A model generated the notes under the pieces. It was not told the DNA's origin and did no database searches. It saw only the letters and a program-made list of their open reading frames with translations. A stretch of 64,000 bases of DNA, taken from positions 24,293 through 88,292 of the forward strand of contig JAXLZT010000002.1 of assembly GCA_046350795.1 (NCBI GenBank), in the 5' to 3' direction. This document shows, piece by piece, positions 1-52,600 of the stretch. The first letter of the stretch is position 1; the number at the start of each line of letters is the position of its first letter. The position numbers and the translations under genes are program-made. This DNA is from Minisyncoccota bacterium. Its GTDB lineage: Bacteria > Patescibacteriota > Minisyncoccia > Phycocordibacterales > CALRHW01.

Positions 1-1404
1 TGTTGCTTATATACGTCTGCCAAAGAAGCTGCACGACGGACCACTTCATCTGCCAGGCGGTTTTTTCGACTGGATCGGCATAATCGATTGATGAGTAGAT
101 TTTTTCAACATGCTCCTTTCGTATCCTGTTTCTTTCCTCGCTTTGCTTTCGATATTTTTCTGGATTTTTCTTCATGTCCTCCATTTGCTCTTGCAGATCA
201 ACGAAGCGGGCATACTCGTTTGGATCGGCAATAGAAACTAAGAAAAGGTTGGCACGGTCCATATAATCATCTGGCAGCCAGAGGCGATACACATCGTACT
301 CATATTCCTCCTCGTATTTGGCTTCCGAGCCGTCGATAAAAATAAACGACTTTATTAAACCTTCTTTTTGAAACTTTCCGATCATGCGGTAAAGCTGGCT
401 TCGATCAACACCGCAATCGTCAAAATCAGAAGCCGCAATATCAACCATGCCATCGGAATACACACCGAGCTTGAACTCGGCGCTGATCTTTTCGAGAACG
501 CATAACTGTTTTTGTTCGGGAGTTTTGGCAGAAGAATTGCTAGACGTAATCGGCTTTCTTGTTTTTCCATCAATGTAATCCTTTAGATTTTTGAGAACGG
601 TAGGAGTGTCGAGGGTAGGTATTCTGACAATAAGCTGGCTGTCCAAATCATGCTCGGTGAGGGAGAGGGTTTCAAGATAATCCTTTTTCGTAGGTATATT
701 ATCCGCACGGACCGAGAACTCTTTACCACCGATTTTCTTTTTCAGCTCGTCGTTTGAAACAGTGATTATCCCGTTTTCTTCCACTCCGATTTTTCCGAGG
801 ATCTTTTTTACTTCATCGAGACTGAAACCTGCACGCTCGTATGCTCCAAACCCGATTTTATTATAGGTAAGACGGTTGATGCCGGTAATCTCTAATTCTT
901 CGAGTGTGATGGTGATTACCTTTTTGAAGCGTTCAAGGTTGCTATCTGACAGTGTGTCGAGCCAGATAAGTTTCGGTGTAATTTTTTGAGTATCAGCAGG
1001 CGCAGATTTTTCTTCAGTCTCAGTGGATACTCCTGCGCTCATAAACTCTGCCAACCCGAGAGTTGTTTTATCGTCTACTTTTCCTTGAGCGGACCACTCA
1101 AAAACTTCATATACTCTGTCGAAGGTTGGTTTTCGTAGTTCAAGCAAATGGCCCGATGGTTTTACCCCAGATACTCGGGCAGTCAGCGTGTCAAACGGAA
1201 AAGGATAGACGTCTTTAGCGACGTCTATTGATCTAGTTACGGTCAGCAATCGTATTGCACGGCGCTGGTCATCAACTGTGGGTTTATTTTCTCCGGTAGT
1301 GTACTCAAAATGGATATGCTCGCTTCGAGCGGTAGACATCTCATCTTTTTTCAGTTCTTGCAGTAGCCACCAGACGTCCTTTTTGAAACGCTCCTCTGTG
1401 TTCA
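1..1404 (-). CDS. hypothetical protein, partial. N-terminus MNTEERFKKDVWWLLQELKKDEM; the 3' end runs off the window, so it is absent from the ORF track.
   Basis: Hand translation of the minus strand from the ATG at 1402-1404 gives an open frame down to position 1 with no stop (over 460 aa). No recognisable motifs. Confidence 0.45.
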
Positions 1405-1508
1405 TCGTAATTGTAATTTAGGCTCACAATCGCATCCTAGCATTTTTTGACTAATAAATTAAGTGTGTTCATTAGGATTTTCAAGCTAATTTTGCTACAC
1501 TTGATCTC

Positions 1509-1640
1509 GTACCCCATAGTGTTTCAATAATCGTGCTACAAGTCCCCGAAAGGACTGTTTCTTCTTACCTGTTATAGGCAAAGAGGGGCAGTCCGAGTTC
1601 CATAACAGGAACCTTTCGGGGTAGCACCATTATGGGGTAC
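1509..1640. other. Long nested inverted repeat of 4 stacked helices with asymmetric internal loops. Candidate structured RNA or regulatory element between the divergent hypothetical gene and Type III mod.
   Basis: Perfect complementarity in four pairs: GTACCCCATA (1510-1519) with TATGGGGTAC (1631-1640); GTGCTAC (1533-1539) with GTAGCAC (1621-1627); CCCCGAAAGG (1544-1553) with CCTTTCGGGG (1611-1620); CCTGTTAT (1568-1575) with ATAACAGG (1602-1609). 14-nt bulges occur only on the left arm. Confidence 0.4.
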
Positions 1641-1704
1641 AAGCTCGGCTGTCCCTTTTTGCCGTTTCTATACAACTAGGCGACCGAGAACATAGCTGTA
1701 CCCT

Positions 1705-3441
1705 ATGTCTCAAACAGAAAAAGAGCTACACGCTCAAATCGCGGATTTACAATCCGAGATCAAAAAATTAAAGAACCGCAAAAAATACGGACTCGTTTGG
1801 GAAGACAAACCCGAGGATGTCGTTTTGCAGTGCCAAGAGAACATTCCAATTCTCAAAGAAGTTAAAACCAGAAAATTAGTTTCTGATAATTCGCTCCCGA
1901 CCAACATCTTGATCGAAGGAGACAATTACCACTCTCTTTCTGTTTTGAACTATACCCATCGCGGCGCAGTCGATGTTATTTACGCTGATCCGCCATACAA
2001 TACTGGATCGACTGACTGGCGATACAACAACGATTACGTCGATAAGACCGATAGCTTTCGGCACAGCAAGTGGATCTCTTTTATGGAAAAGAGATTGCGC
2101 CTTGCAAAAAATCTCCTGAAAGAAGACGGGATTATTTGCGTTACGATTGACGATTACGAAGTCTCAAGACTTATTCTTTTGATGGAAGAGATTTTCGGTG
2201 AGTTTAACCACCTTGGAACTGTACCAATCAGAAACAATCCAGCTGGACGTTCAACGACGAAAGGAATATCGATTACTCACGAATATGCAGTCTTTTTTGG
2301 AAAAACAGATAAGGCATTTGTATCACGTTTGGACCGTAATCAGTCGCAGCGAGATCGATATGATGAAGCCGACGACAAAGGCACTTTTGAGTGGGTCAAT
2401 TTTCGCAAGCCAGGCAGTATGCGAGAAGAGTCACCTAAAATGTATTACCCGATTTTTGTAACTTCTCATTCTATCCGGCTTCCAAAATTAGTTTGGAATG
2501 AGGATGAGAGCGATTACAAATTATTAGAAAAGCCCAAAAAAGGAGAGGAAATAATTTACCCGATTGATGAGGATGGAAAACAAAGACGATGGCGCTGGGG
2601 TATTGAAAGGTTTGTAAAAGAGCAAGAGGATTTAATGCCTCGAATATCTAAGGGTAAACTCCACGTCTATGTAAAAGGCCGAATGAATGACGAAGGAGTG
2701 CTCCCAATGACATGGTGGGATAAAAAAGAGTATTCATCTACCGCGTACGGAACGAACTTACTCAAAGACATTTTTGCCGAACTTCAAGTATTTTCTTATC
2801 CAAAATCTCTATATGCCGTGATGGATAGCATCCGAGTTATGAGTGATAAGCGAGACGCTGTTATTCTTGATTTTTTTGCTGGATCTGGAACAACCGGTCA
2901 TGCAGCTTTGGAATTGAACAAACTAGATGGGGGTAAAAGAAAGTTCATACTTTGTACCAATAATGAAAACAAGATTTGTGAAGAAGTAACTTACGAAAGA
3001 ATTAAACGAGTCGCCAAGGGATATAAAAACAGAAAGGGAGAAAAAGTCGAAGGACTCGGCGGTAATTTATCTTATTTCAAAACTGACCTCGTCAGTGTTG
3101 ATAGACTGCGCCGTATTTCAGATGAGTCCAAAATCAAAGTTACGTACCAAGCTGGTGAGATGATTGCTCTGCGCGAGGATACTCTAAGCGAAATTGAGAG
3201 GAATGAGTGGTGGCAGATTTTTGAGGGCAATGGAAAACTGACGGCCATTTACTTCACAGAAAATAAAACAAAACTTAAAGAACTTCTAAAATTATTAGAG
3301 AAGAAAGATAAACCAGCGACGCTCTACATATTCGGCTGGGGTAAAAACGAATACAAGAACGATTATTCGACTCACAAGATCCGTGTCGAGGATATTCCTG
3401 AGCCAATTCTTGAAGTTTATAAAGAAATTAACCGCATATAA
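1705..3441 (+). CDS. mod: Type III restriction-modification system methyltransferase (Mod), N6-adenine/N4-cytosine class
   Basis: Catalytic DPPY motif (VIYADPPYNTGS), an AdoMet-binding FxGxG-like motif (DFFAGSGTTGHAA), and length typical of Mod. Confidence 0.85.
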   Translation: MSQTEKELHAQIADLQSEIKKLKNRKKYGLVWEDKPEDVVLQCQENIPILKEVKTRKLVSDNSLPTNILIEGDNYHSLSVLNYTHRGAVDVIYADPPYNTGSTDWRYNNDYVDKTDSFRHSKWISFMEKRLRLAKNLLKEDGIICVTIDDYEVSRLILLMEEIFGEFNHLGTVPIRNNPAGRSTTKGISITHEYAVFFGKTDKAFVSRLDRNQSQRDRYDEADDKGTFEWVNFRKPGSMREESPKMYYPIFVTSHSIRLPKLVWNEDESDYKLLEKPKKGEEIIYPIDEDGKQRRWRWGIERFVKEQEDLMPRISKGKLHVYVKGRMNDEGVLPMTWWDKKEYSSTAYGTNLLKDIFAELQVFSYPKSLYAVMDSIRVMSDKRDAVILDFFAGSGTTGHAALELNKLDGGKRKFILCTNNENKICEEVTYERIKRVAKGYKNRKGEKVEGLGGNLSYFKTDLVSVDRLRRISDESKIKVTYQAGEMIALREDTLSEIERNEWWQIFEGNGKLTAIYFTENKTKLKELLKLLEKKDKPATLYIFGWGKNEYKNDYSTHKIRVEDIPEPILEVYKEINRI

Positions 3442-3443
3442 TT

Positions 3444-5747
3444 ATGTTCGCGCTCAAACCATTTCAAGAAAATGCCATCTCTCAGCTCAAGGAAAAGTTC
3501 CTAACGCTTTGGAAACTTGGCGATCACAATCTCAACCTGACATTCAAATCACCTACTGGTTCCGGTAAGACCATTATGATGGCGCAGTTCCTTCGAGACA
3601 TCGTATCGGACCCGCGATTTCAAAATGCGGATGTTGGATTTCTTTGGATTACAAACTCCGACTCGCTTGCCATGCAGTCAAAGGATAAACTTTTTTCATA
3701 CTATGGCGGCGCTAGTGAAAACCCTCTGCTCGATCTTAACGATTTGAGCGATGGCTGTATTCCAAAGAGCGGGGTATTTTTTATAAACTGGCAGAAGCTC
3801 GTATCTCGTGCTCAGACGAACCGTAAACTTCGTACCGAGGGAGAACTAAATGTAACATTCGATCAATACCTAAACGCAACTCACGAAAAAGGCCGCGAAG
3901 TTATTTTGATTATCGACGAGGAGCATATTGCTTCATCGACCGTGCTGGCGAGCGATCTGATACAAAATGTCATCAAGCCGCGAATAATTATTGGTGTTTC
4001 CGCTACGCCTCAAACGAAAGGAGTAACCGTGGAAGTAGCGCGTACAGATGTGGTTCGGGAGGGACTCATCAAAGAGAAAACTGTTTTTCAAACCGAGGAA
4101 GATCTGCAAAGAAAAGAGTTCGCGGGAATGGACCAAGACGACATCCTATTGACCCTGGCCTTCGATAAACGCACGGAGCTTGCAGGATACTATAAAGCTC
4201 TCGGTATCGACATCAATCCGCTTATCCTCATTCAGCTCCCAAATGACGATAAGGCAACGAAAGGATCGACTGGTACGACTAAACAAGAGTTGATTATATC
4301 CTTCTTGAAATCAAAAGGTGTATTTGAGCACGAAATTGCCGTATGGCTCTCAGAAGACAAGATCAACCTGGACGATGTCGAGAAGAACAATTCGCCGATC
4401 TCTTTTTTGCTTTTCAAACAAGCGGCTGCGACCGGATGGGACTGCCCGCGTGCGAGCGTTCTGGTTATGTTTCGTGAGATCAAAAATCCAACATTTGCTA
4501 TTCAAACCGTGGGACGTATTCTCCGTATGCCGCTCGGTACACACTTTCCAAGACCAGAACTAAACCTTGGCTACCTATATACCAATTACAAGCGAAATGA
4601 AGTTATTACTGGTTATGCTCGATCTGCGGAAAATCGTCCTGCTATCTACGGAAGCTACCGAAAACAATCCGTTGAACCAATTATGATCGACTCTGTGTTT
4701 ATGAGCCGTACTGACTACAACGATCTTGGCGACAGTTTTCAAGATGTTTTCAAAAAGGTTGCTGATAAGTATTTTTCTATCACAGAAAAAGACAGTGAAA
4801 AGGCAATCCAGAAAAGTTTTGTAACAACCGGTTTCGACACTGAGTCTTCAGTCACAAATGGTCTTATTACAGGAGTAGAAATTGATGACTACGATAATTT
4901 CAAGCAGGAGCTTTTGTCGGAAGGAGGAAGCCACGAGCAAGAAATATCCCAGTATGATCTTGAGCGGCTCTATAACTTGCTTTGTTTCAACATTGTCGCA
5001 AAGCAGACTGACGAGAATAAAAAGTTTGCCCCTGAGCGTTCATGGGGAAAGCTGAAAACGGCGCTCAATGTATGGCTCCTCGGTCATTTGAACGCGTCGC
5101 GCTCCAAGGTCTACTCTATGATCGTGGGTGATCTTATAAAGTCCACAAGCGTACTCGCGCCTCTTATTGGTAAGGCGCTGGAAGCGTATCGTCCAATCCG
5201 CGAGCAGGAAGTAAACCGCAAGTCTGAACGCGCCAAGCGTACTGAAAAAATTGAAATCCCTCGCCAGAGTATTTTTTATACCGATCAGTACGAAGAGATG
5301 GACGTTAAAAAGTCTGCAATGGCTCCATTCTATATTGAGAAGGACTACAAGGGAGAGGATAATGAAAAAGAGTTCATCAAGTTCATGGAGGAGAGCAAGA
5401 GTGTTATCTGGTGGTACAAGAACGGCGATGCTGGCAGCGAGTTTTTCTCCATCTCGTATTTCAATCCCGACGAGAACAAGGAAAAACTCTTTTATCCCGA
5501 TTGGATCGTAAAGACGAAGGATAAAACCTGGATCATTGATACCAAGAAAGGTGCAACCGCAGAACTCGCTGACACGGCCTATAAAGCCGAAGCGCTCCAA
5601 GAATGGCTCAAAGGAAAGAAGGGGCTGGCAGGTGGAATTGCAGTGCAGGACGGACCGAATGGATGGAAGACAAACTCAAATACCAAATACTCTTACTCGC
5701 CAACATTTAAGGGCTGGGTATCTCTCGCAGACGAGTTGAAAAGTTAG
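3444..5747 (+). CDS. res: Type III restriction enzyme Res subunit (SF2 helicase-nuclease)
   Basis: Walker A motif SPTGSGKT, a DEAH-like box (IIDEEH), a start immediately after mod (coupled), and size consistent with Res. Confidence 0.8.
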   Translation: MFALKPFQENAISQLKEKFLTLWKLGDHNLNLTFKSPTGSGKTIMMAQFLRDIVSDPRFQNADVGFLWITNSDSLAMQSKDKLFSYYGGASENPLLDLNDLSDGCIPKSGVFFINWQKLVSRAQTNRKLRTEGELNVTFDQYLNATHEKGREVILIIDEEHIASSTVLASDLIQNVIKPRIIIGVSATPQTKGVTVEVARTDVVREGLIKEKTVFQTEEDLQRKEFAGMDQDDILLTLAFDKRTELAGYYKALGIDINPLILIQLPNDDKATKGSTGTTKQELIISFLKSKGVFEHEIAVWLSEDKINLDDVEKNNSPISFLLFKQAAATGWDCPRASVLVMFREIKNPTFAIQTVGRILRMPLGTHFPRPELNLGYLYTNYKRNEVITGYARSAENRPAIYGSYRKQSVEPIMIDSVFMSRTDYNDLGDSFQDVFKKVADKYFSITEKDSEKAIQKSFVTTGFDTESSVTNGLITGVEIDDYDNFKQELLSEGGSHEQEISQYDLERLYNLLCFNIVAKQTDENKKFAPERSWGKLKTALNVWLLGHLNASRSKVYSMIVGDLIKSTSVLAPLIGKALEAYRPIREQEVNRKSERAKRTEKIEIPRQSIFYTDQYEEMDVKKSAMAPFYIEKDYKGEDNEKEFIKFMEESKSVIWWYKNGDAGSEFFSISYFNPDENKEKLFYPDWIVKTKDKTWIIDTKKGATAELADTAYKAEALQEWLKGKKGLAGGIAVQDGPNGWKTNSNTKYSYSPTFKGWVSLADELKS

Positions 5748-18226: not shown

Positions 18227-21200
18227 ATGGGTGATTTTTCGACTAAAAAATTTTTTCTAAAAACAGTTTTCACACTGTTTGTCTTTTTATTTTTTACTTC
18301 ACAGGTGTATGCTGCCACTATTTATTCAAATAGTAGTACAGGAAATGATTCTACTGGTGATGGTACTAGTGGTTTACCATATCGTACATTTCACAAAGCA
18401 TATACCGTGGCGAGCGCTGGTGACACTATCAATCTCACCGGTACATTTACATGGACTGATGCATCTGAAACAGGTGACGCGTCTCCAGCTGGATATACAA
18501 TAGGAAAAAATCTTACTATTGTCGGACAGGGTGCAGATGAGACTATCGTGCAATCTGCCACAGCATCTACTACGGGTGATAGACGTGTGTTTACTGTGTC
18601 TGCCGGCATAGTTGCTAATTTTGATAAATTAAACATAAGACATGGTCGTGTGACGGGTTCTGTATATGGCGGTGGTATTTATAATAGCGGTACCACTACG
18701 GTGACAAATTCGGATATAAACAACAACTCTAGTCCATCATATGGTGGAGGCGGTGTTGCAAACTACGGCATTTTTACTATCGAAGATAGTTCTATACGAA
18801 ATAATACTGGATATTATGGTGGTGGAGGTATTAGAAATATGGATTTGCTGGCAGATCTTTTTATCACAAATACCACCATTACTGGAAATCAGCAGATGTC
18901 GAGCACTGGGTATACCGATGGAGGAGGTATAGATGCGAGATATGGAGATGTGACGCTCACAAACTCTGCGATTGTTTACAACTCAGCGTATGGCACGGGT
19001 GGACTTTGTATGTGTGATACCACCGGTACTTTGACGATAAAGAATACTATTATTGCCAACAACTTAAAAAAAGGCGGTGGCTCTGCATACGATTTTTATA
19101 AAAATAATGTAGGTAGTACTGTAACTGATAATGGAAAAAATATTGTTGGAAGTTCAAATGGTAGTTACACGTGGGTGGGCTCTGGTGATTGGACGGACAC
19201 TGATTTAAACGGAAGTTTTACACTATACAGTGTCGGTACTACTGGCTCCTTAAATATGGAATCTACATCAAGCACAAATGATGATCCAGATGGTACATAC
19301 AATCACGCTATTTTTGCAAGCTCTATTGCAATAGATAATGGAGCCACTGGTGCAAACGGTGCCACATCTACTGTACCCACACTAGATCAGCGTGGTGCTA
19401 CACGTAATAGCACTACAGATATTGGTCCTTTTGAATACAATGGGGGTGGTCTTTCTATATCAGCTCCCACCACCCAAGCATCTTCTGTAACTTTTAGTTC
19501 CGTTGAATACAACAGAATGACTGTGAGTTGGACAAATGGTAACGGCTCACGACGTGTAGCTTTTATGAAAGCAGCTAGTAGCGGTACGGCGTCACCAGTA
19601 GATGGTACATCATATGCCTCAAGCTCTGTGTTTGGAAGTGGTGATCAGATCGGCTCTTCAGGATGGTATGCGATATATGATGGACTTGGGTCTAGTGTGA
19701 CTGTTACAGGACTTACACAAGGTGTTACATATATAGTGCAAGTATTTGAATACAATGGAGTTTCTTCTGGTACAGCAGATTATCTTACTGATACAGCTAC
19801 AAACAATCCAAACACACAACAATCACATGCCGTTGTTACTTTGTATGTAAATAGTTCCACAGGAAATGATTCTACCGGCGATGGATCAAGTGGAAGTCCG
19901 TATCTCACTTTTCACAAAGGATATACTTCTGCTAGTGCAGGCGACACTATAAATCTTACAGGTACTTTTACATGGACTGATTCTGGAGAGACGGGTGACT
20001 CTGCCACTACGGGTTACACACTTTCAAAAGATTTAACTATTCAAGGCAATGGTGCAGATGACACTATACTTCAGTCTGCCACAGCATCTACTACTGGAGA
20101 CAGAAGAATATTTACTGTTTCATCTGGAGCTACCGTAACTATTGATGACATTATGTTGAGAAATGGTCGTGTGACAGGCTCTGTGTATGGAGGAGCTATT
20201 GATAACAGTGGAACACTTACTATTACTGATTCTGATATCAATAATAATTCCAGTCCTTCGTATGGCGGTGGAGGAATTGTAAATTACAGCACGCTTACTT
20301 TGGACAGAGTGTCTATGTGGAACAACACTGGATATTATGGTGGTGGTGCGATTAGAAATCTAGATGCCAACGGTGATATTTTTATTACAAACTCAACGCT
20401 TGCCTATAATCAACAAATGTCTAGTGGTGTATATACCAACGGTGGAGCTATAGACATGAGGTATGGTGATCTTACTTTGACAAATTCGGTAATAGCTTAC
20501 AACTCAGCGTATGGTGTCGGTGGACTTTGTATGTGTGATACCACAGGTACTTTGACGATAAAAAATAGCATAATAGCTAGCAATCTAAAAAAAGGCGGTG
20601 GCTCTGCATATGATTTTTATAAATCAAACGCAGGTAGCACTGTAACTGATAATGGAAAAAATATCGTCGGAAGTTCAAACAGTAGTTATACTTGGGTGGG
20701 CTCTGGTGATTGGACGGACACTGATTTAAATGGAACCTTTACACTATACAGTGTCGGTACCACAGGTTCTTTAAATCAGAGTAGTACGCTAGCTACAAAC
20801 AGTGCATTAAATAATACTTACACTCTTGCTATTACTTCGGCTAGTTCAATAGCAAAAGATAATGGAGCTACAGGAACAAACGGTACCATATCTGTACCTA
20901 CCACAGATCAGCGACAAGGCACTAGAAACGGTACTACCGATATAGGTGCATATGAGTATGGTGCAACTTTTGGAGATACTACTGTGCCCACCGTGTCTGT
21001 GACGGCTCCAAGCTCTGATGCAACAGTCTCTGGCGCTAGTGTTTCTTTTACAGCAGATGCTAGTGACGATGTGGCTGTGGCGGGAGTAAAATTTTATGTA
21101 AATGGAGTATTGCAGGGAAGCGAAGACACGACTTCTACATATGGTATTACATGGGACAGTACAGCGACTACTTCGGGTGCTTATACTCTAGTAGCCGTCG

Positions 21201-31848: not shown

Positions 31849-31854
31849 AATACA

Positions 31855-31955
31855 AAACAAAGTATCTAAAAAGGGTACGGACTTTTTGAAGCTTCAAAAA
31901 GTCCTGAAGCGTTCGCGCCGTCGCGCTCACGACCCCCTTTTTAGATACTTTGTTT
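31855..31955. repeat. Structured intergenic repeat element, copy A (family shared with 43505-43625), at a convergent-gene junction
   Basis: 21-bp perfect outer stem (AAACAAAGTATCTAAAAAGGG / CCCTTTTTAGATACTTTGTTT). Conserved core GGGTACGGACTTTTTGAAGCTTCAAAAAGTCCTGAAGCGTTCGCGCCGTCGCGCTCACGACCCCC. Confidence 0.6.
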
Positions 31956-35849: not shown

Positions 35850-38450
35850 TTATATAACACTTCCGGAAGTGCCCCATTGTGAAAGAAGTATTGAGAAATC
35901 AACAGAGTTGACTGTGCTGTCTTGATTTATATCTACACATTCGTTTTGAAATGGCGCTATATTTTTCCAAAAAGCAAGCAAGATAGAGAAATCTACAGAG
36001 TTTACTATGTTGTCGGAGTTGAAATCTGCACCTTTACATGAGCCGGTATTACCTGATGATGAACTTCCGCCACCACTACTTCCGCCGCCACCACCGCCAC
36101 CGCCGGAGCTACCACCCCCACTGACTGTGAATGTTCTAGATGATCCTGAAGAATCTGTACCGAAGTACACTATGAGTTTGAAATAATAATCTCCTGCAGA
36201 ATCAACTGTCGCTGTAAGGTTTGTATTCCAATCTTCTCCTGGGTTTATAAATTTAGCACCTGTTGCGTGATATTCATCGTCTCCACCGCCACAAGAGTTT
36301 GATGCGCTAGATACAACGCACCATTCGTATTGGTATTCATATCCAGCTAGACCTTCGTTTGTAATTGTTACGTTTGCGCTGATATCAGAGACTGAGTTTG
36401 CTGTAACACTATTTATAATTACCTGAGCAGGGGAGCCAGCTACTAGCCAGTAATCGTTGTTTGTAAGTGTTTTACCACTTTCAACTTGTGTACTTATAAC
36501 ACTTTCCCATACGCCCTGAGTCGCACCAGAGGCTACAGAATATGTGTATTCATATATACCGGTTCCTACAGATGACATCGCAACATTTGATACTGTTACA
36601 TTTCTGAGAGGATCGTAAAGTGTGATTGTTGGTGTAGCAAATGGGGAAGTAGGAACACTGTTGTTATTTCTGATTTCAATTCTAGCTCTGTATGTTTCGC
36701 CAGCTTGAACTTCGTTGAAGTCTGACATTACTGTTGTCCAGCCAGAGCTTCCGCCGATTGCGCTTATCGCTGAAGCAAGAGATGTACTAGCAGTTAAAAC
36801 GCTACTATTTGTATTACTATTCACAGCACTTGTACCAGCTGTGATCGCTGAAGCCAAACTACTTGTCGCTGTCTGTACGTCAGACAATGTTGCGAGACTT
36901 CCGCTTGTGAGTGCTCCGCTTGTTAGAGTACGTACAGAGTTTGACCAGACATCAGACGCAAGTGTGCCGAAAGAGGTGAGTGTTCTACCACTATATGACC
37001 AAATCACTGCAGGAATTGTTGCAAACAAGCTTGATGAAGCTGTTGCGATCTCTGCGTCAGTGTTTGCGTTTACATCAGTCACTATATTCGCTGTCGCACT
37101 ATTGGTATTTGCGTTGATTACAGCAGCCAAACTAGATGTAGCTGTTGTCACCACTGAGCTTGTGTTGCTGTTTACAGCACTTGTACCAGCTGTGATCGCT
37201 GAAGCCAAACTACTTGTCGCTGTCTGTACGTCAGAAAGTGTTGCGAGAGAGCCAGATGTGAGCGCTCCACTTGTTAGAGTACGTACAGAATTTGACCAGA
37301 CACTAGATGTCACATCAGCTACGAGCGTACCAAAAGATGTAAGTGTTCTTCCGCTATATGACCAGATTGTTGCGGGAAGTGTAGCGAATAGAGATGATGA
37401 GGCCGTTGCAATCTCAGCATCAGTGTTTGCATTTACGTCAGTTACTATGTTTGCAGTAGCGCTGTTTGTGTTCGCATTAATAACCGCGGCTAGACTAGAT
37501 GAAGCTGTTGCAACCCTTGAGTCAGTGTTTGAGTTTACGACAGCAGCCAAACTACTTGTCGCTGTCTGTACGTCAGACAATGTTGCGAGACTTCCGCTTG
37601 TGAGTGCTCCGCTTGTTAGAGTACGTACAGAGTTTGACCAGACATCAGACGCAAGTGTGCCGAAAGAGGTGAGTGTTCTACCACTATATGACCAAATCAC
37701 TGCAGGAATTGTTGCAAACAAGCTTGATGAAGCTGTTGCGATCTCTGCGTCAGTGTTTGCGTTTACATCAGTCACCATATTCGCTGTCGCACTATTGGTA
37801 TTTGCGTTGATTACAGCAGCCAAACTAGATGTAGCTGTTGTCACCACTGAGCTTGTGTTGCTGTTTACAGCACTTGTACCAGCTGTGATCGCTGAAGCCA
37901 AACTACTTGTCGCTGTCTGTACGTCAGAAAGTGTTGCGAGAGAGCCAGATGTGAGCGCTCCACTTGTTAGAGTACGTACAGAATTTGACCAGACATCAGA
38001 AACTAAGCTACCAAAGGAGCTAAGTGTACGAGTAGTACTGTTCCAAACAGCATTCGCTATGGTACTTGTAGCAGCTATTGTCGCTCCGACTGTAAAGGTT
38101 TTATTTACTTTCACTAAATCACCGTTAGAAATGTTCCCACACGTCATATAAGTAGGCCAATTGCCCTCACTTTCTCCAGCACCAATAGAAAAATTGTAGT
38201 ATGTCCAACCATTTGCATTGGCTGTCATTGCACCAGCGTTTAATTTTACGCTTCCAGAAGGATCGTAGATAGTCAGAGTACAGCCAGCAGTAGTTGTTGC
38301 TACAAAATCATCATCATAAACAAACTCACCTATAGTAATAGTGTCACCAAGAGAAGCTCTTTGATAGTCCGCTTTTGCTGTATTTGAAAAAGACAAAAAC
38401 AACCCAAAAAATAAAATGCAAAATGCAAAAAAGGGTAGTGTTTTTTTCAT
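35850..38450 (-). CDS. Large secreted dockerin-containing repeat protein (start set at MKKTLPFFAF)
   Basis: Signal peptide. Four or more ~110-aa tandem repeats (WSNSVRTLTSGALTSGSLATLSDVQTATSSLA...NANTDAEIATASSSLFAT). A Gly/Ser linker. A C-terminal type-I dockerin pair (DFNSDNIVNSVDFSILLAFW, DINQDSTVNSVDFSILLSQW) with canonical Ca-loop positions 1,3,5,9,12. Confidence 0.7.
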   Translation of the reverse strand: MKKTLPFFAFCILFFGLFLSFSNTAKADYQRASLGDTITIGEFVYDDDFVATTTAGCTLTIYDPSGSVKLNAGAMTANANGWTYYNFSIGAGESEGNWPTYMTCGNISNGDLVKVNKTFTVGATIAATSTIANAVWNSTTRTLSSFGSLVSDVWSNSVRTLTSGALTSGSLATLSDVQTATSSLASAITAGTSAVNSNTSSVVTTATSSLAAVINANTNSATANMVTDVNANTDAEIATASSSLFATIPAVIWSYSGRTLTSFGTLASDVWSNSVRTLTSGALTSGSLATLSDVQTATSSLAAVVNSNTDSRVATASSSLAAVINANTNSATANIVTDVNANTDAEIATASSSLFATLPATIWSYSGRTLTSFGTLVADVTSSVWSNSVRTLTSGALTSGSLATLSDVQTATSSLASAITAGTSAVNSNTSSVVTTATSSLAAVINANTNSATANIVTDVNANTDAEIATASSSLFATIPAVIWSYSGRTLTSFGTLASDVWSNSVRTLTSGALTSGSLATLSDVQTATSSLASAITAGTSAVNSNTNSSVLTASTSLASAISAIGGSSGWTTVMSDFNEVQAGETYRARIEIRNNNSVPTSPFATPTITLYDPLRNVTVSNVAMSSVGTGIYEYTYSVASGATQGVWESVISTQVESGKTLTNNDYWLVAGSPAQVIINSVTANSVSDISANVTITNEGLAGYEYQYEWCVVSSASNSCGGGDDEYHATGAKFINPGEDWNTNLTATVDSAGDYYFKLIVYFGTDSSGSSRTFTVSGGGSSGGGGGGGGSSGGGSSSSGNTGSCKGADFNSDNIVNSVDFSILLAFWKNIAPFQNECVDINQDSTVNSVDFSILLSQWGTSGSVI
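36830..38000. repeat. Near-identical tandem DNA repeats (about 690 bp x2, each containing about 330-bp sub-repeats) inside the dockerin protein gene
   Basis: Blocks such as TCAGACAATGTTGCGAGACTTCCGCTTGTGAGTGCTCCGCTTGTTAGAGTACGTACAGAGTTTGACCAGACATCAGACGCAAGTGTGCC recur verbatim near 36880 and 37570. The shadow ORF 36715..38151 repeats identical peptide blocks. Confidence 0.7.
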
Positions 38451-43505: not shown

Positions 43506-43625
43506 GTAACAACAAAACAAAAGACCTTCTCAGGGTACGGATTTTTTGAAGCTTAAAAAATCCTGAAACGCTCGGCTCGACAGCCTCGCGACCCCCTTCG
43601 AAGGTCTTTTGTTTTGTTTGTTACC
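43505..43625. repeat. Structured intergenic repeat element, copy B (same family as 31855-31955), spanning the whole convergent tatA / pseudouridine-synthase junction
   Basis: 25-bp outer stem (GGTAACAACAAAACAAAAGACCTTC / GAAGGTCTTTTGTTTTGTTTGTTACC). Core GGGTACGGATTTTTTGAAGCTTAAAAAATCCTGAAACGCTCGGCTCGACAGCCTCGCGACCCCC. Internal hairpins change in a compensatory way relative to copy A. Confidence 0.6.
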
Positions 43626-49617: not shown

Positions 49618-52600
49618 GTGGTATTAATAATTTATGAAAAAACCACAAATTTTATGAAAAATCTCTTATTTATTGGGGCAAGAGGGCAAAAACACAGTCT
49701 TTTATCAAGGTTTTTTATTAAATCGACAGCAGGGCTGTTGATTTTTTTATTTGCTTTTCCGGTGGGGGTAGTTTGGGGAGAAGATCACAGTATCGATAAA
49801 AACCACAACAGATCAGCTGAAAAAACAGATACAATAAAACCATCAGACCCAGAAAAACACGATGTTGGTGTTGTACCAACTATATCTGAAGTAGCTCCAT
49901 CTCATAGATCAAAAAAGGATTCTAGAGATGAATCTGATAAGGAGGTGGTTCCACAGTTATTGCTTGATGAAGATGCAAATAATATAGTAGAAAATCCTAG
50001 TTCAATAAAAAGTTTATTGCCTGACGTTGATACTTTTTCTGGATCTCTTGTTTATAAATATCCAATAGTTTTGCCAGCTGGTCGCAACGGTCTTACCCCA
50101 AGTCTTGATCTTACATACAATAGTGGTTTGTCATTAAATAATAGTATTTCTGGATACAACTGGTCTCTTTCTATTCCTTTTATAGAACGTATAAACAGAA
50201 AAGGTGCTGACAAGCTTTACTCAAGGAATGATTTTGTATCGTCTCTTTCAGGTGAGCTTGTAGCAGAAAATGGTACCACTAAATATACAGCAAAAGTTGA
50301 TGAAGGTTCTTTTCTAGATTATACATTCACAAATGATACTTGGACTGCTGTAGATAAACAGGGAACAAAATATACTTTCGGCTCTACTACTCAGTCACGT
50401 TTAAACAATGCTTCTAACGCATCAGAAACTTATCGTTGGATGGTGGAAGAGATTCGTGATAAAAATGACAATTTCATTAGATTTGAGTATGAAAAAGACA
50501 GTAATCAAATCTATCCTTCAAATATTTTTTATACAGGATATGGAAGTACGGACGGTATTTTTGAAGTAAATTTTAATTATGAAAATAGAGAAGATGAAAC
50601 CAATAGTTTTGCATCAAGATTTGAGATGGTTACTTCAAGGCGTCTTGAGAACATAGAAATAAATATAAACGGTGTTTTATCAAAGAAATATTCTTTAGCA
50701 TACATCGCTGGTCACAACACCGTCAGATCTTTATTAAAATCAATCACTGTGTCGGCTGGAACCACCACATTGCCTGCAACGGAATTTGAATATCAGACTA
50801 TACCAAAAAAATTAGAATTTAAACCTGATGTTTTTCAGTCACCATCATTTTACAGGCCATCTACATCAGATTATGCTTTTATTGAATTAAAAGAGAGTCC
50901 TGAATCTACAAATAGACTTGTTGATGTCAACGGCGATGGTCTTTTGGATTTTATACGTACTTCTAATAGCGAAAACAGTGATGGTATTGTTCATGACATA
51001 AATAATGATTTGCCTCGCGTTTTCCTAAACACAGGTCATAGTTGGGAATTTAATCCAGATAAATACCAGTTACCTTCTTATTACCGACCTAGTACAAATG
51101 ATTATAAGTATATGGTTCTAAATGATGTCAATAAACTCATTGATGTTAACGGGGACAATTTACCAGATTTTATTCATACTTCAGATGTAGCTGATGCTGA
51201 TGGTGTGATCACTAACAACAATGATGGTTTCCCGAGAGTCTATTTAAATACTGGTAATGGTTGGGAATTTAATCCAGATAAATATCAATTACCTTCTTAT
51301 TACCGACCTAGTACAAATGATTATTTTTTCTTTCAGACAAAAGAAGAGGAGCACGATGTTACGCAGATAATAGATGTCAACGGTGATGGGCTACCAGATT
51401 TTGTGCGTACATCCGACGATGAGGATGCTGATGGTGTTGTTCTTAACAATAACAACTCTGCTCCTCGTGTATATCTAAATACTGGTAACGGTTGGGAATT
51501 TAATCCAAATAAATATCAACTTCCTGTTTATTACAGACCTAGTACAAATGATTATTATTTTATGGCACTTAAATCTGTCCCAGGATCTACAAACAGACTT
51601 ATTGATGTCAATGGTGATGGGTTAGTAGATTTTTTGAGAACAAATGACACTGAGGATGCTGATGGAGTTGTTTTAAATAACAACGGTGATGCACCACGTG
51701 TTTATCTAAATACTGGCAACGGCTGGGAATTTAATCCAGATCACTATCAGCTTCCTGTGTATTACAGACCGCCTACAAATGATTATCATTTTATGGCACT
51801 TAAGGAGTTTACACAGCTTGCTGATGTAAATGGCGACGGTTTGCCAGATTTTGTCCGTACAGACGATGGTGAGCATGCGACGGGTGTTATAACAAATCTA
51901 AATGGTGATGGTCCACGTGTTTATCTAAACACAGGAAATGGTTGGAAGTTTGATCCCGATTTGTATCAGTGGCCGGCATTTTACAAGCCAGCTACAAACA
52001 ATTATGAGTGGAGAGCTTTGAAGACTAGTAATCAGCTCATAGATATAAACGGTGATAATCTATTGGATTTTGTGCGCACATCTGCTGGTGAGGATGCTGA
52101 TGGACTAATACTTAATAATAATGGTGATGGATCTCGTGTATATATAAATACAGGAAAAGGTTGGGAATTTAACCCTGATTTATATCAATTACCTTCGTAT
52201 TATAGACCGTCTACATCAGACTATTATTTTATGCAACTTTCATATTACTCTAAATTTGCTGATATAAACAACGATGGATTGCAAGATTTTATTAAGACTA
52301 CAAGCGAATTTGATTCTGATGGTCTTATTCTGAATAATCTAAACGATGGTGCAAGAGTATACCAGAATGTTGGGGAAACCGCTGATTATTTAGCAGCTGT
52401 TATTTTTCCAGAGGGTGGAGAGGCACATTTCGATTATCAACTTGAAATAATAAACGGCAGAAATCCAAGTAGTCCATATTATTCTCAAAATGTTTCTGTG
52501 CTTAAAGATATTGTCATAGATGATGGTCTGGGGAATCTAGCAACAAGTACATATAAGTACAAAGATGGAGAGTATTTTTATCATAACGATCCATTTAAAC

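What the first reader, a model, noticed from the sequence alone, without database searches (positions are those of the whole stretch)
1509..1640. 132-nt perfectly nested four-helix inverted repeat between the Type III RM operon and a divergent unknown gene
Four stacked, perfectly complementary helices of 10, 7, 10 and 8 bp are separated by large strictly one-sided bulges of 14 nt each. A 26-nt apical loop closes the structure. This asymmetry is what a folded RNA looks like, not a DNA cruciform or operator. The element lies 65 nt upstream of the mod start codon and about 105 nt upstream of the divergent gene start, so it sits in a 5' leader whichever way it is transcribed. I cannot match it to SRP, 6S, retron msr/msd (no RT nearby), riboswitch classes or tRNA. 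It may be an undescribed cis-regulatory RNA controlling a restriction system, or a small RNA gene.
Basis: seen in the sequence. Interest (0 to 1): 0.6.

Follow-up and report, generated by a model that had tools for sequence, protein, structure and literature searches.

The report
Structured RNA leader of restriction operon
The 132-base nested hairpin is real. It is most likely the folded start of the messenger RNA of a type III restriction-modification operon, a conserved control element that can be swapped for the orphan "LOOT" RNA motif at the same place in related bacteria.

Summary
The nested inverted repeat at 1509-1640 is confirmed. It folds at -62 kcal/mol, z = -8, and is single-copy in the window.

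It is not a transposon end, DNA operator or known Rfam family. It is the 5' domain of a ~196-nt leader of the mod-res operon (type III RM) of a Candidatus Paceibacterota MAG.

- **Homologs.** Twenty-two distinct homologs in Patescibacteria MAGs, metagenomes and one viral contig begin homology exactly at G1509. This lies 6-7 nt after an extended -10 box.
- **Conservation.** The leader is 94% identical on average, against 74-81% for mod coding DNA.
- **Covariation.** Related leader classes with different sequence keep the same layout. Seven of 13 pairs in the outer helix show compensatory changes.
- **Competing pairings.** The apical loop is complementary to the 20 nt that follow the hairpin. 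A copy of the 5' arm sits at the mod start codon and covaries three ways with both arms.
- **LOOT.** In a syntenic locus (Mod 93% identical) the hairpin is replaced by the Rfam orphan LOOT RNA (RF03000). All four LOOT hits found lie in mod leaders.

Best reading: a cis-acting leader RNA that controls mod-res translation by competing pairings. The signal is unknown and transcripts are not verified.

The parts
1493..1501 (+). Predicted extended -10 promoter box TGCTACACT (hexamer 1496-1501); predicted transcription start at G1509 (+/-1).
   Evidence: TGnTAnnnT preceded by a T-run lies 6-7 nt before the first G of the element in all 16 window-class flanks, although the flanks are otherwise unrelated. 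The same holds in L044, L042 and L140. The motif sits 6-8 nt before the ATG of six other genes of this window, which are leaderless mRNAs. Inferred; no transcript data.
1509..1521 (+). A: 5' arm of outer helix P1 (GUACCCCAUAGUG), the predicted 5' end of the mRNA.
   Evidence: Pairs with 1628-1640. Across 16 distinct sequences, 7 of 13 pairs have compensatory changes on both sides and 97% of cells are paired. 0 of 500 shuffles reach the observed values.
1522..1532 (+). 5'-side bulge 1; variable in sequence and length among homologs.
   Evidence: Alignment A3: the substitutions and indels of the hairpin are concentrated here and in 1540-1543 and 1554-1567.
1533..1538 (+). P2, 5' strand (pairs with 1622-1627).
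   Evidence: Five pairs are invariant in all 18 sequences. The sixth pair exists only in the window and L033.
1544..1553 (+). P3, 5' strand CCCCGAAAGG (pairs with 1612-1621).
   Evidence: 100% paired. One pair shows A-U->G-C compensatory change (L017, L020). One pair shows A-U->G.U in 4 sequences.
1568..1575 (+). P4, 5' strand (pairs with 1602-1609); closes the 26-nt apical loop.
   Evidence: invariant. The equivalent apical helix in L044/L140 shows one U-A->C-G compensation (sequences).
1577..1597 (+). L: apical-loop sequence GGCAAAGAGGGGCAG-U-CCGAG, complementary to L' (1644-1663).
   Evidence: 20 bp including 2 G.U and one bulged U; duplex -35.1 kcal/mol. Invariant in 18 sequences apart from one G.U->G-C change on the L' side. 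An equivalent loop-to-downstream complementarity with different sequence occurs in L044, L140, L042, L051, L139, L057 and L059.
1602..1627 (+). 3' strands of P4 (1602-1609), P3 (1612-1621) and P2 (1622-1627).
1628..1640 (+). A': 3' arm of P1 (CAUUAUGGGGUAC). It is also complementary to A2 at the start codon.
   Evidence: Duplex A:A' is -20.1 kcal/mol and A':A2 is -13.1 kcal/mol. A':A2 is 98% paired, with one compensatory change in L140.
1644..1663 (+). L': CUCGGCUGUCCCUUUUUGCC, the partner of the apical loop. It contains the U-run 1656-1660; a U-run (UUUU or longer) occurs at or just after L' in most classes, but is interrupted in L139.
   Evidence: (I2).
1684..1688 (+). L'': CCGAG, able to pair with the 5' part of L' (CUCGG). 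It overlaps the 5' arm of the start hairpin.
   Evidence: helix 2: 97% paired, with only one-sided changes. Weak in the window itself (5 bp).
1686..1711 (+). Start-codon hairpin: GAGA(A)CAUAG (1686-1695) pairs with CUAUGUCUC (1703-1711). The loop carries A2.
   Evidence: Present in the MFE of the full leader; duplex -7.8 kcal/mol. In L044 both arms change together with the codons (GAGCAUAAG / CUUAUGCU, MSQ->MLN).
1698..1703 (+). A2: GUACCC, a copy of the mRNA 5' end, 1 nt before the AUG (GUACCCC in most homologs).
   Evidence: (D8, I15). Three-way covariation between L044 and L140: GUACCC/GGGUAC/GUACCC against GUAUCC/GGAUAC/GUAUCC. Longer copies in other classes: 8, 10, 9 and 8 nt in L042, L051, L057 and L059, and 9 nt in L139 by direct reading of the sequence.
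1705..3441 (+). mod: type III DNA methyltransferase, 578 aa.
   Evidence: PF01555, E = 1.6e-31. NCBI MFO0719006.1, MAG Candidatus Paceibacterota.
3444..5747 (+). res: type III restriction helicase-nuclease subunit, 767 aa. It starts 2 nt after the mod stop codon.
   Evidence: PF04851 ResIII, E = 2.5e-16.

Best explanation
The element is the 5'-terminal domain of a ~196-nt cis-acting leader RNA of the mod-res (type III restriction-modification) mRNA.

**Proposed mechanism.**
- Transcription starts at or next to G1509, from an extended -10 promoter.
- The first 132 nt fold into a long bulged hairpin closed by helix A:A'.
- Two sets of competing pairings link this hairpin to the translation start.
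  - The 3' arm A' is also complementary to A2. A2 is a copy of the 5' arm placed right at the mod AUG, which itself lies in a small hairpin.
  - The apical loop L is complementary to the 20 nt (L') that follow the hairpin.
- While A:A' is formed, A' cannot reach the start region.
- If the hairpin is opened, cut or prevented, A' (and the start hairpin) can occlude the AUG.

This organism has essentially no Shine-Dalgarno sequences and often uses leaderless mRNAs. Access to an unstructured start codon should therefore be the main determinant of translation.

The leader thus most likely sets or switches the amount of Mod and Res made from a mobile RM cassette. The fully paired 5' end probably also protects the mRNA.

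**Shown:**
- the structure;
- its conservation;
- the covariation;
- the layout shared with LOOT leaders.

**Inferred:**
- the transcription start;
- regulation of translation;
- the direction of the switch.

**Unknown:** the signal (protein, ribonuclease, metabolite or folding kinetics).
For: **Real, strand-specific fold.**
- z = -8.1 on the + strand.
- G.U pairs occur in P1 and in L:L' that would be C.A mismatches on the other strand.

**Homologs and the homology boundary.**
- 29 homologous loci, 22 distinct.
- They come from Saccharibacteria, Paceibacterota and Nomurabacteria MAGs, metagenomes and one viral contig.
- All lie upstream of mod-res.
- Homology starts at G1509 and continues to the ATG.

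**Predicted promoter.**
- An extended -10 box lies 6-7 nt upstream in unrelated flanks.
- The same motif and spacing precede the ATG of leaderless genes in this window.

**Conservation.**
- Leader: 94% mean nucleotide identity.
- First 180 nt of mod: 81%.
- Whole mod: 74%.
- Upstream flank: 67%.
- Mod is only 56% and Res 66% identical in amino acids between the window and L003.

**Covariation.**
- 99% of cells are paired within the class; variation is confined to the bulges.
- 7 of 13 P1 pairs show double changes once L044 and L140 are added; 0 of 500 shuffles reach this.

**Same order A < L < A' < L' < A2-AUG in 10 representatives of 5-6 sequence classes.**
- Three-way covariation of A, A' and A2 between L044 and L140.
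- The same between L057 and L059.

**Bistability of LOOT-type leaders.**
- The two states differ by only 2.6-3.6 kcal/mol.

**Interchangeability with LOOT.**
- L139 has a Mod 93% identical and the same divergent neighbour at 76%.
- Its leader is a LOOT RNA at 67.2 bits.
- All 4 LOOT hits lie in mod leaders.

**Absence where no leader is expected.**
- Structured leaders are absent where mod is fused into an upstream operon.

**Shine-Dalgarno use.**
- Only 1 of 31 genes has one.
Against: - There is no transcript, probing or expression data, so the start site and the regulation are inferred.
- In the window class the hairpin state is favoured by about 13-16 kcal/mol over both alternatives. A spontaneous switch is therefore unlikely without a factor.
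- A2 in the window itself is only 6 nt, not significant on its own by my shuffle test (235 of 2000).
- Within the window class there is almost no variation in the helices. Most covariation comes from two sister sequences (L044, L140) and from cross-class comparison by eye.
- The hairpin and a full 20-bp L:L' helix are probably sterically exclusive. Whether L:L' is a pseudoknot, a competitor or a terminator stem is open.
- No nucleotides are conserved across classes that would indicate a ligand pocket.
Confidence: 0.6

Rival explanations
1. Constitutive 5' stabiliser or insulator only. The hairpin simply protects the 5' end of the mod-res mRNA from 5'-end-dependent decay and damps translation, with no regulated switch. 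The A2 and L' complementarities would be by-products or folding aids.
For: - The hairpin starts at the predicted +1 with no unpaired 5' nucleotides.
- It is 13-16 kcal/mol more stable than the alternatives in the window class.
- The start hairpin forms in every predicted state.
Against: - A stabiliser needs no 94% sequence conservation, and no invariant 26-nt loop with a 20-nt complement.
- A, A' and A2 covary three ways in two independent class pairs.
- LOOT-type leaders at the same locus are predicted to be bistable.
Confidence: 0.2
2. Transcription attenuator. The loop-to-downstream helix L:L' followed by the U-run acts as a long-range intrinsic terminator, the hairpin state being the antiterminator. 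Control would then act on read-through into mod rather than on translation.
For: A GC-rich L:L' helix immediately followed by, or overlapping, a U-run (UUUU or longer) is present in most classes; the run is interrupted in L139. In the window L:L' is -35 kcal/mol.
Against: - The terminator stem would enclose 45-75 nt.
- The consensus scan does not call it.
- In L044, L051, L057 and L059 the U-run lies in the loop of a local hairpin.
- This model does not explain A2 at the start codon.
Confidence: 0.12
3. Independent small RNA gene acting in trans, as Rfam classifies LOOT. It would be transcribed from the same promoter and released by termination or processing near 1660.
For: - Rfam types LOOT as 'Gene; sRNA'.
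- The 5' domain is very stable, and a U-run follows it.
Against: - Every copy found (29 hairpin-type, 4 LOOT) is directly upstream of, and co-oriented with, a mod gene.
- Conservation continues to the AUG.
- The start region covaries with the hairpin arms.
- No copy was found elsewhere in the loci.
Confidence: 0.08
4. DNA-level element. Candidates:
- a transposon or MITE inverted repeat;
- a recombination site of the island;
- a cruciform;
- an operator for a dimeric regulator;
- the methylase's own target sites.
For: - It is an inverted repeat between divergent genes on a mobile island carrying serine and tyrosine recombinases.
- The 5' homology boundary is sharp.
- A and A2 look like flanking direct repeats.
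Against: - It is single-copy, and always at the same place relative to mod.
- There is no 3' boundary: homology runs on into mod.
- Asymmetric bulges, and G.U pairs tolerated on one strand only.
- Direct repeats left by an insertion would not covary with the arm between them.
- Mods with different central (target-recognition) regions share an identical leader, which argues against methylation target sites.
Confidence: 0.04

Closest known systems
LOOT RNA motif (Rfam RF03000; Weinberg et al. 2017, PMC5737381), an orphan motif typed as sRNA
   Same: - It occupies exactly the same slot. All four LOOT matches found here lie between an extended -10 box and a type III mod start codon (L051, L057, L059, L139).
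- L139 is syntenic with the window: Mod 93% identical and the divergent neighbour 76% identical, yet it carries LOOT where the window carries the hairpin.
- LOOT leaders share the layout: the closing helix A:A' (LOOT hairpin 2), loop complementarity to a downstream segment, and a copy of A at the start codon.
   Different: - There is no sequence or covariance-model similarity. LOOT does not appear even at E <= 10 on 231 nt.
- LOOT is four consecutive hairpins, two of them with GAAA loops. The window element is one long bulged hairpin.
- LOOT leaders are predicted to be bistable, whereas the window hairpin is strongly favoured.
- I could not read what the discoverers said about LOOT's gene context, because the supplement is not held.
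Translational riboswitch expression platforms, e.g. the add adenine riboswitch (from general knowledge)
   Same: The 3' strand of the helix that closes the structured domain is also complementary to the translation-initiation region. Formation of the domain and occlusion of the start are therefore mutually exclusive.
   Different: - No ligand is known.
- No unpaired nucleotides are conserved across classes; the bulges are the most variable part.
- No Shine-Dalgarno is involved.
hok mRNA fold-back (fbi/tac/ucb) elements and IS10 fold-back inhibition (from general knowledge)
   Same: - Long-range, mutually exclusive pairings involve the mRNA 5' end and the start region.
- They control translation of a potentially lethal, mobile, addiction-type gene set.
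   Different: - There is no antisense partner or 3'-end processing signal here.
- Sequence and topology are unrelated.
- The resemblance was not tested beyond the resemblance itself.
Controller (C) proteins and antisense RNAs of type II RM systems (e.g. PMC4824078, PMC2997769)
   Same: A dedicated element that limits or times expression of restriction-modification genes on mobile DNA.
   Different: Those act through a DNA-binding protein or a separate antisense transcript. Here no regulator gene is present and the element is part of the mRNA. My searches found no RNA leader control described for type III systems.
5'-terminal stabiliser stem-loops (ompA, aprE leaders; from general knowledge)
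   Same: The helix begins at the predicted first transcribed nucleotide.
   Different: It is much larger, sequence-conserved, and coupled to the start codon by covarying repeats.

Membership tests
LOOT RNA (RF03000) | Match to the Rfam covariance model at or above the gathering score (46.4 bits). | tested here: not met
   There is no LOOT match at E <= 10 in window 1000-2200 or 1490-1720. The model does find L051 (77.2 bits), L139 (67.2), L059 (56.3) and L057 (47.6).
LOOT RNA (RF03000) | Four consecutive hairpins H1-H4, with GAAA loops on H3 and H4 (consensus as printed by cmscan). | tested here: not met
   The window element is a single extended hairpin of four stacked helices. The LOOT consensus is shown.
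LOOT RNA (RF03000) | Position in the leader of a type III mod gene, with a copy of the closing-helix 5' arm at the start codon. This is a feature found here, not part of the Rfam definition. | tested here: met
   same order of elements, and a syntenic replacement in L139.
Riboswitch (ligand-sensing leader) | Alternative pairing between the closing helix and the initiation region. | tested here: met
   A' pairs with A or A2. Covariation is shown.
Riboswitch (ligand-sensing leader) | Highly conserved unpaired nucleotides forming a binding pocket, shared by all members. | tested here: not met
   The bulges are the most variable parts. No sequence is shared between classes (nhmmer negative). The only weak riboswitch hit is noise: SAM-III, 14 bits against a gathering score of 45.
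Riboswitch (ligand-sensing leader) | Binding of a defined ligand. | not testable with these tools
   Needs in-line probing or ITC.
MITE / transposon terminal inverted repeat | Several copies per genome, in unrelated contexts. | tested here: not met
   There is one copy in 64 kb. All 29 homologs lie upstream of mod.
MITE / transposon terminal inverted repeat | Sharp homology breaks at both ends, with a target-site duplication. | tested here: not met
   Only the 5' boundary is sharp; homology continues 3' into mod. The flanking direct repeat (A/A2) covaries with A'.
Intrinsic terminator / attenuator | GC-rich stem immediately followed by a U-run. | tested here: inconclusive
   L:L' plus UUUUUG fits only as a long-range stem. 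The scan calls only a 5-bp local hairpin at 1541-1556.
5'-terminal mRNA stabiliser hairpin | The stem starts within 0-2 nt of the transcript's 5' end. | tested here: inconclusive
   Met if the start is G1509, as predicted from the -10 spacing. There is no 5'-end mapping.
tRNA, SRP, 6S, retron and all other Rfam 15 families | Covariance-model match. | tested here: not met
   only chance-level hits (at most 16.5 bits, far below the gathering scores).

The most novel reading that the evidence does not exclude
The hairpin and LOOT are interchangeable sensor domains of one kind of riboregulator. It would gate translation of mobile type III restriction-modification cassettes in Patescibacteria, for example by delaying or limiting Res/Mod synthesis after the cassette enters a new, unmethylated cell. 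The trigger could be a ribonuclease, the Mod/Res proteins or a metabolite. This would be the first RNA-based establishment control for type III RM. It would also give a function to an orphan Rfam motif, in organisms that translate without Shine-Dalgarno sequences.
Probability: 0.3. Interest if true: 0.8.

Novelty: new variant of a known kind. Interest (0 to 1): 0.62.

Why it matters
**Regulation of type III restriction-modification.**
- How type III systems avoid killing a new host is poorly understood.
- My literature searches found no RNA leader mechanism described for them.
- Here a large leader, conserved more strongly than the genes it precedes, travels with mod-res cassettes across Patescibacteria.

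**The orphan motif LOOT.**
- The leader exists in at least two exchangeable structural versions, and one of them is LOOT.
- This gives LOOT a concrete gene context and a testable mechanism: competition for the start codon.

**A model for translation control.** It offers a case of translation control in bacteria that lack Shine-Dalgarno sequences.

**A practical point.** Patescibacterial RM systems are a barrier to genetic manipulation of these uncultivated symbionts.

Tried and rejected
1. **Leader peptide.**
   - An ORF starts at AUG 1633 inside A' (MGY(K/R)LGCPFLPFLY...), and substitutions in 1661-1673 look mostly synonymous.
   - Rejected because its end and frame are not conserved, there is no ribosome-binding signal, the AUG is buried in P1, and other classes have no AUG in A'.
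2. **MITE or transposon end.** Rejected; see the membership tests.
3. **A, A' and A2 as recognition sites of the methylase.** Rejected because Mods with different central regions share an identical leader.
4. **LOOT membership of the window element.** Tested twice and negative.
5. **The MFE pairing of the pyrimidine tract 1551-1568 with the loop.**
   - Not supported. The tract varies, and the L140 sequence has no equivalent.
6. **Sequence search of more distant Mod loci in viral contigs.**
   - Loci L004-L012 and L059-L138 were collected.
   - Only L003 carries the window-type leader.
   - Of the 20 loci scanned against Rfam, only L059 carries LOOT.
   - L012, L007 and L011 have unrelated leader hairpins that were not followed.
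7. **Chance matches.** Four of the 29 exact-pattern hits were chance (L023, L029, L031 and L041, the last from Chitinophaga).
8. **Literature.**
   - Nothing was found on RNA leaders of type III RM.
   - Nothing was found on LOOT function.
   - The Weinberg 2017 supplement is not held.

Full report
**1. The observation**

- 10 bp, 1509-1518 with 1631-1640, extendable to 13 bp with one G.U;
- 7 bp, 1533-1539 with 1621-1627;
- 10 bp, 1544-1553 with 1612-1621;
- 8 bp, 1568-1575 with 1602-1609, closing a 26-nt loop.

Two details need correcting. The second and third helices share G1621. The bulges are 14, 4 and 14 nt on the 5' side against 3, 0 and 2 nt on the 3' side, so they are strongly asymmetric but not strictly one-sided.

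As RNA, the + strand folds at -62.3 kcal/mol, against -33.1 +/- 3.6 for shuffles (z = -8.1). The - strand folds at -58.1 kcal/mol. The element occurs once in the window. No Rfam 15 family matches it, even at E <= 10.

**2. Context**

- Downstream lie mod (1705-3441, PF01555) and res (3444-5747, PF04851), a type III restriction-modification operon.
- Upstream, on the other strand, an ORF without Pfam match starts at 1405 and runs off the window. It is 649 aa in the longer contig L001.
- In L001 the cassette lies in an island with a serine recombinase, an excisionase-like gene and a tyrosine integrase, between dnaX and a copper oxidase gene.
- The exact proteins are on record as a MAG of Candidatus Paceibacterota.

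**3. Homologs**

An exact-pattern scan for the outer helix found one viral contig (L003). Twenty-base patterns from the loop and from the downstream segment found 16 metagenome and 8 genome loci, plus 4 chance hits. In total there are 29 homologous loci, 22 of them distinct. The named genomes are Saccharibacteria, Paceibacterota and Nomurabacteria MAGs.

Every copy is upstream of, and co-oriented with, a mod-res pair. In all of them homology begins exactly at GTACCCCATAG and continues to the mod ATG. The upstream flanks fall into at least four unrelated groups.

Those flanks nevertheless all carry a T-run and TGnTAnnnT ending 6-7 nt before the first G. In this window the same motif is enriched upstream of genes: 10 of 31 against 2.4 expected. 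In six genes it ends 6-8 nt before the ATG, which indicates leaderless mRNAs. I therefore place the transcription start at G1509 +/- 1. This is an inference.

**4. Conservation**

Mean nucleotide identity over 13 loci (78 pairs) is given below.

| Region | Mean identity |
|---|---|
| Leader | 94% (minimum 87%) |
| First 180 nt of mod | 81% |
| Last 450 nt of mod | 78% |
| Whole mod | 74% |
| 100 nt upstream | 67% |

Between the window and L003, Mod is 56% and Res 66% identical in amino acids. The non-coding leader is thus the most conserved part of the cassette.

**5. Structure support**

Within the class (18 distinct sequences) 99.1% of cells pair. Variation falls in the 5' bulges. The few changes in helices keep pairing:
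- G.U<->G-C and U-A<->U.G in P1;
- A-U->G.U and one compensatory A-U->G-C in P3;
- G.U->G-C in the loop-to-downstream helix.

Adding the sister classes L044 and L140 (Mods 77% identical) gives compensatory changes on both sides in 7 of 13 P1 pairs. 97% of cells are paired, and 0 of 500 shuffles reach the observed values. The G.U pairs and the promoter assign the RNA to the mod-sense strand.

**6. The unit is larger than 132 nt**

The apical loop (L, 1577-1597) is complementary to the 20 nt that start 3 nt after the hairpin (L', 1644-1663). This makes 20 bp with two G.U and one bulge, at -35.1 kcal/mol. L' contains a U-run.

The mod AUG lies in the 3' arm of a small hairpin (1686-1695 with 1703-1711). 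In L044 both arms of this hairpin change together with the first codons.

In its loop, 1 nt before the AUG, sits GUACCC (A2). This is a copy of the first nucleotides of the transcript and is therefore complementary to the 3' arm A'.

Alone, the 6-nt copy in the window is not significant: 235 of 2000 shuffles reach it. The feature recurs in every class:
- GUACCCC in most window-class members (19 of 2000);
- 8 nt in L042 (1 of 2000);
- 10 nt in L051 and 9 nt in L057 (0 of 2000 each);
- 8 nt in L059 (22 of 2000).

It also covaries three ways:
- L044 GUACCC / GGGUAC / GUACCC against L140 GUAUCC / GGAUAC / GUAUCC;
- L057 CCAACGAC / GUCGUUGG / CCAACGAC against L059 CCGACAAA / UUUGUCGG / CCGACAAA.

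The order A < L < A' < L' < A2-AUG holds in all ten representatives examined.

**7. Link to a known motif**

Scanning the more distant leaders against Rfam gave LOOT RNA (RF03000, typed as sRNA, function unknown) in four loci.

| Locus | LOOT score (bits) |
|---|---|
| L051 | 77.2 |
| L139 | 67.2 |
| L059 | 56.3 |
| L057 | 47.6 |

The gathering score is 46.4 bits. All four hits lie in mod leaders. The A:A' helix of those leaders is LOOT hairpin 2.

L139 is the key case:
- its Mod is 93% identical to the window's;
- its divergent neighbour is 76% identical;
- the DNA aligns on both sides;
- between the neighbour's upstream region and the mod coding sequence, the window has the hairpin and L139 has LOOT.

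The two structures are therefore interchangeable modules at one locus. The window element itself fails the LOOT model and has a different topology, so I do not file it as a LOOT member.

Mod relatives that abut or overlap an upstream gene have no such leader (L048, L054, L055). L050, preceded by a tRNA gene, has only a short unstructured one.

**8. Energetics**

| Leader | A:A' (hairpin) state | A':A2 state | L:L' forced |
|---|---|---|---|
| Window | -85.5 | -72.3 | -69.9 |
| L051 (LOOT-type) | -87.6 | -91.2 | not computed |
| L057 (LOOT-type) | -80.9 | -77.7 | not computed |
| L059 (LOOT-type) | -76.6 | -74.0 | not computed |

Values are in kcal/mol. LOOT-type leaders are nearly iso-energetic between the two states. 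The LOOT versions look like true two-state switches. The window version is biased to the hairpin and would need a factor, a cut or kinetics to change state.

L' begins 3 nt after a ~35-bp composite stem whose far end carries L. A straight hairpin and a complete L:L' helix therefore cannot coexist. This is a geometric inference.

**9. Why start-codon structure should matter here**

Only 1 of 31 long ORFs in the window has a Shine-Dalgarno-like motif, and several are leaderless. A 196-nt structured leader is exceptional in this genome. Sequestering the AUG is a plausible means of control.

**10. Verdict**

The element is the 5' domain of a conserved cis-acting leader of a mobile type III RM operon.
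- It most likely governs translation, and probably mRNA stability, through competing pairings.
- It is a structural alternative to the orphan LOOT motif.
- The signal and the direction of regulation are unknown.

Rival readings are weighed in the report sections:
- a pure stabiliser;
- an attenuator;
- a trans-acting sRNA;
- a DNA-level element.

My literature searches found no description of RNA leader control of type III RM or of LOOT function. The original LOOT supplement could not be read.

Noticed in passing
window, whole (e.g. gene starts 14172, 16215, 23586, 7038-, 29915-, 44371-): The genome almost never uses Shine-Dalgarno sequences (1 of 31 long ORFs). Many genes have an extended -10 box (TGnTAnnnT) ending 6-8 nt before the ATG, which indicates leaderless mRNAs.
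   Followed up: partly
L001 3475-9701 (left of the window) and window 1-1405: The RM cassette lies in an integrated island between dnaX and a copper oxidase gene. The island carries a serine recombinase, an HTH_17 gene, a tyrosine integrase, DUF5659 and a 649-aa protein without Pfam match. Serine recombinases also flank the cassettes in L044, L057 and L140.
   Followed up: no
window 50920-52241 and 36809-38027: Tandem repeats with periods of 219-231 nt (6 copies) and ~345 nt (4 copies), presumably inside large repetitive proteins.
   Followed up: no
window 18317-19369 and 19838-20893: A duplicated block at a spacing of 1521 nt, 71-81% identical; likely tandem paralogous domains or genes.
   Followed up: no
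window 43511-43618 and 31852-31900: A hairpin with 25-nt arms (92% complementary). One arm is 82% identical to a sequence 11.7 kb away, so this may be a second repeated intergenic element.
   Followed up: no
L051 1-1212, L052 862-1212: A reverse transcriptase (RVT_1, seen in L051 only) and a bAvd-like gene (in both loci), the makings of a diversity-generating retroelement, lie next to a LOOT-mod-res cassette.
   Followed up: no
L012 about 2700-2930; L007 and L011 about 2800-2900: More distant Mod relatives in viral contigs also have long leader hairpins of unrelated sequence. L012 has a nested CACGCTCGG...CCGAGCGTG hairpin followed by a terminator-like stem. Structured mod leaders may therefore be wider than the classes studied here.
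   Followed up: no
L050 about 2735-2811: A tRNA gene and a terminator directly precede a mod gene that has only a short unstructured leader, showing that the structured leader is not universal in this Mod family.
   Followed up: no
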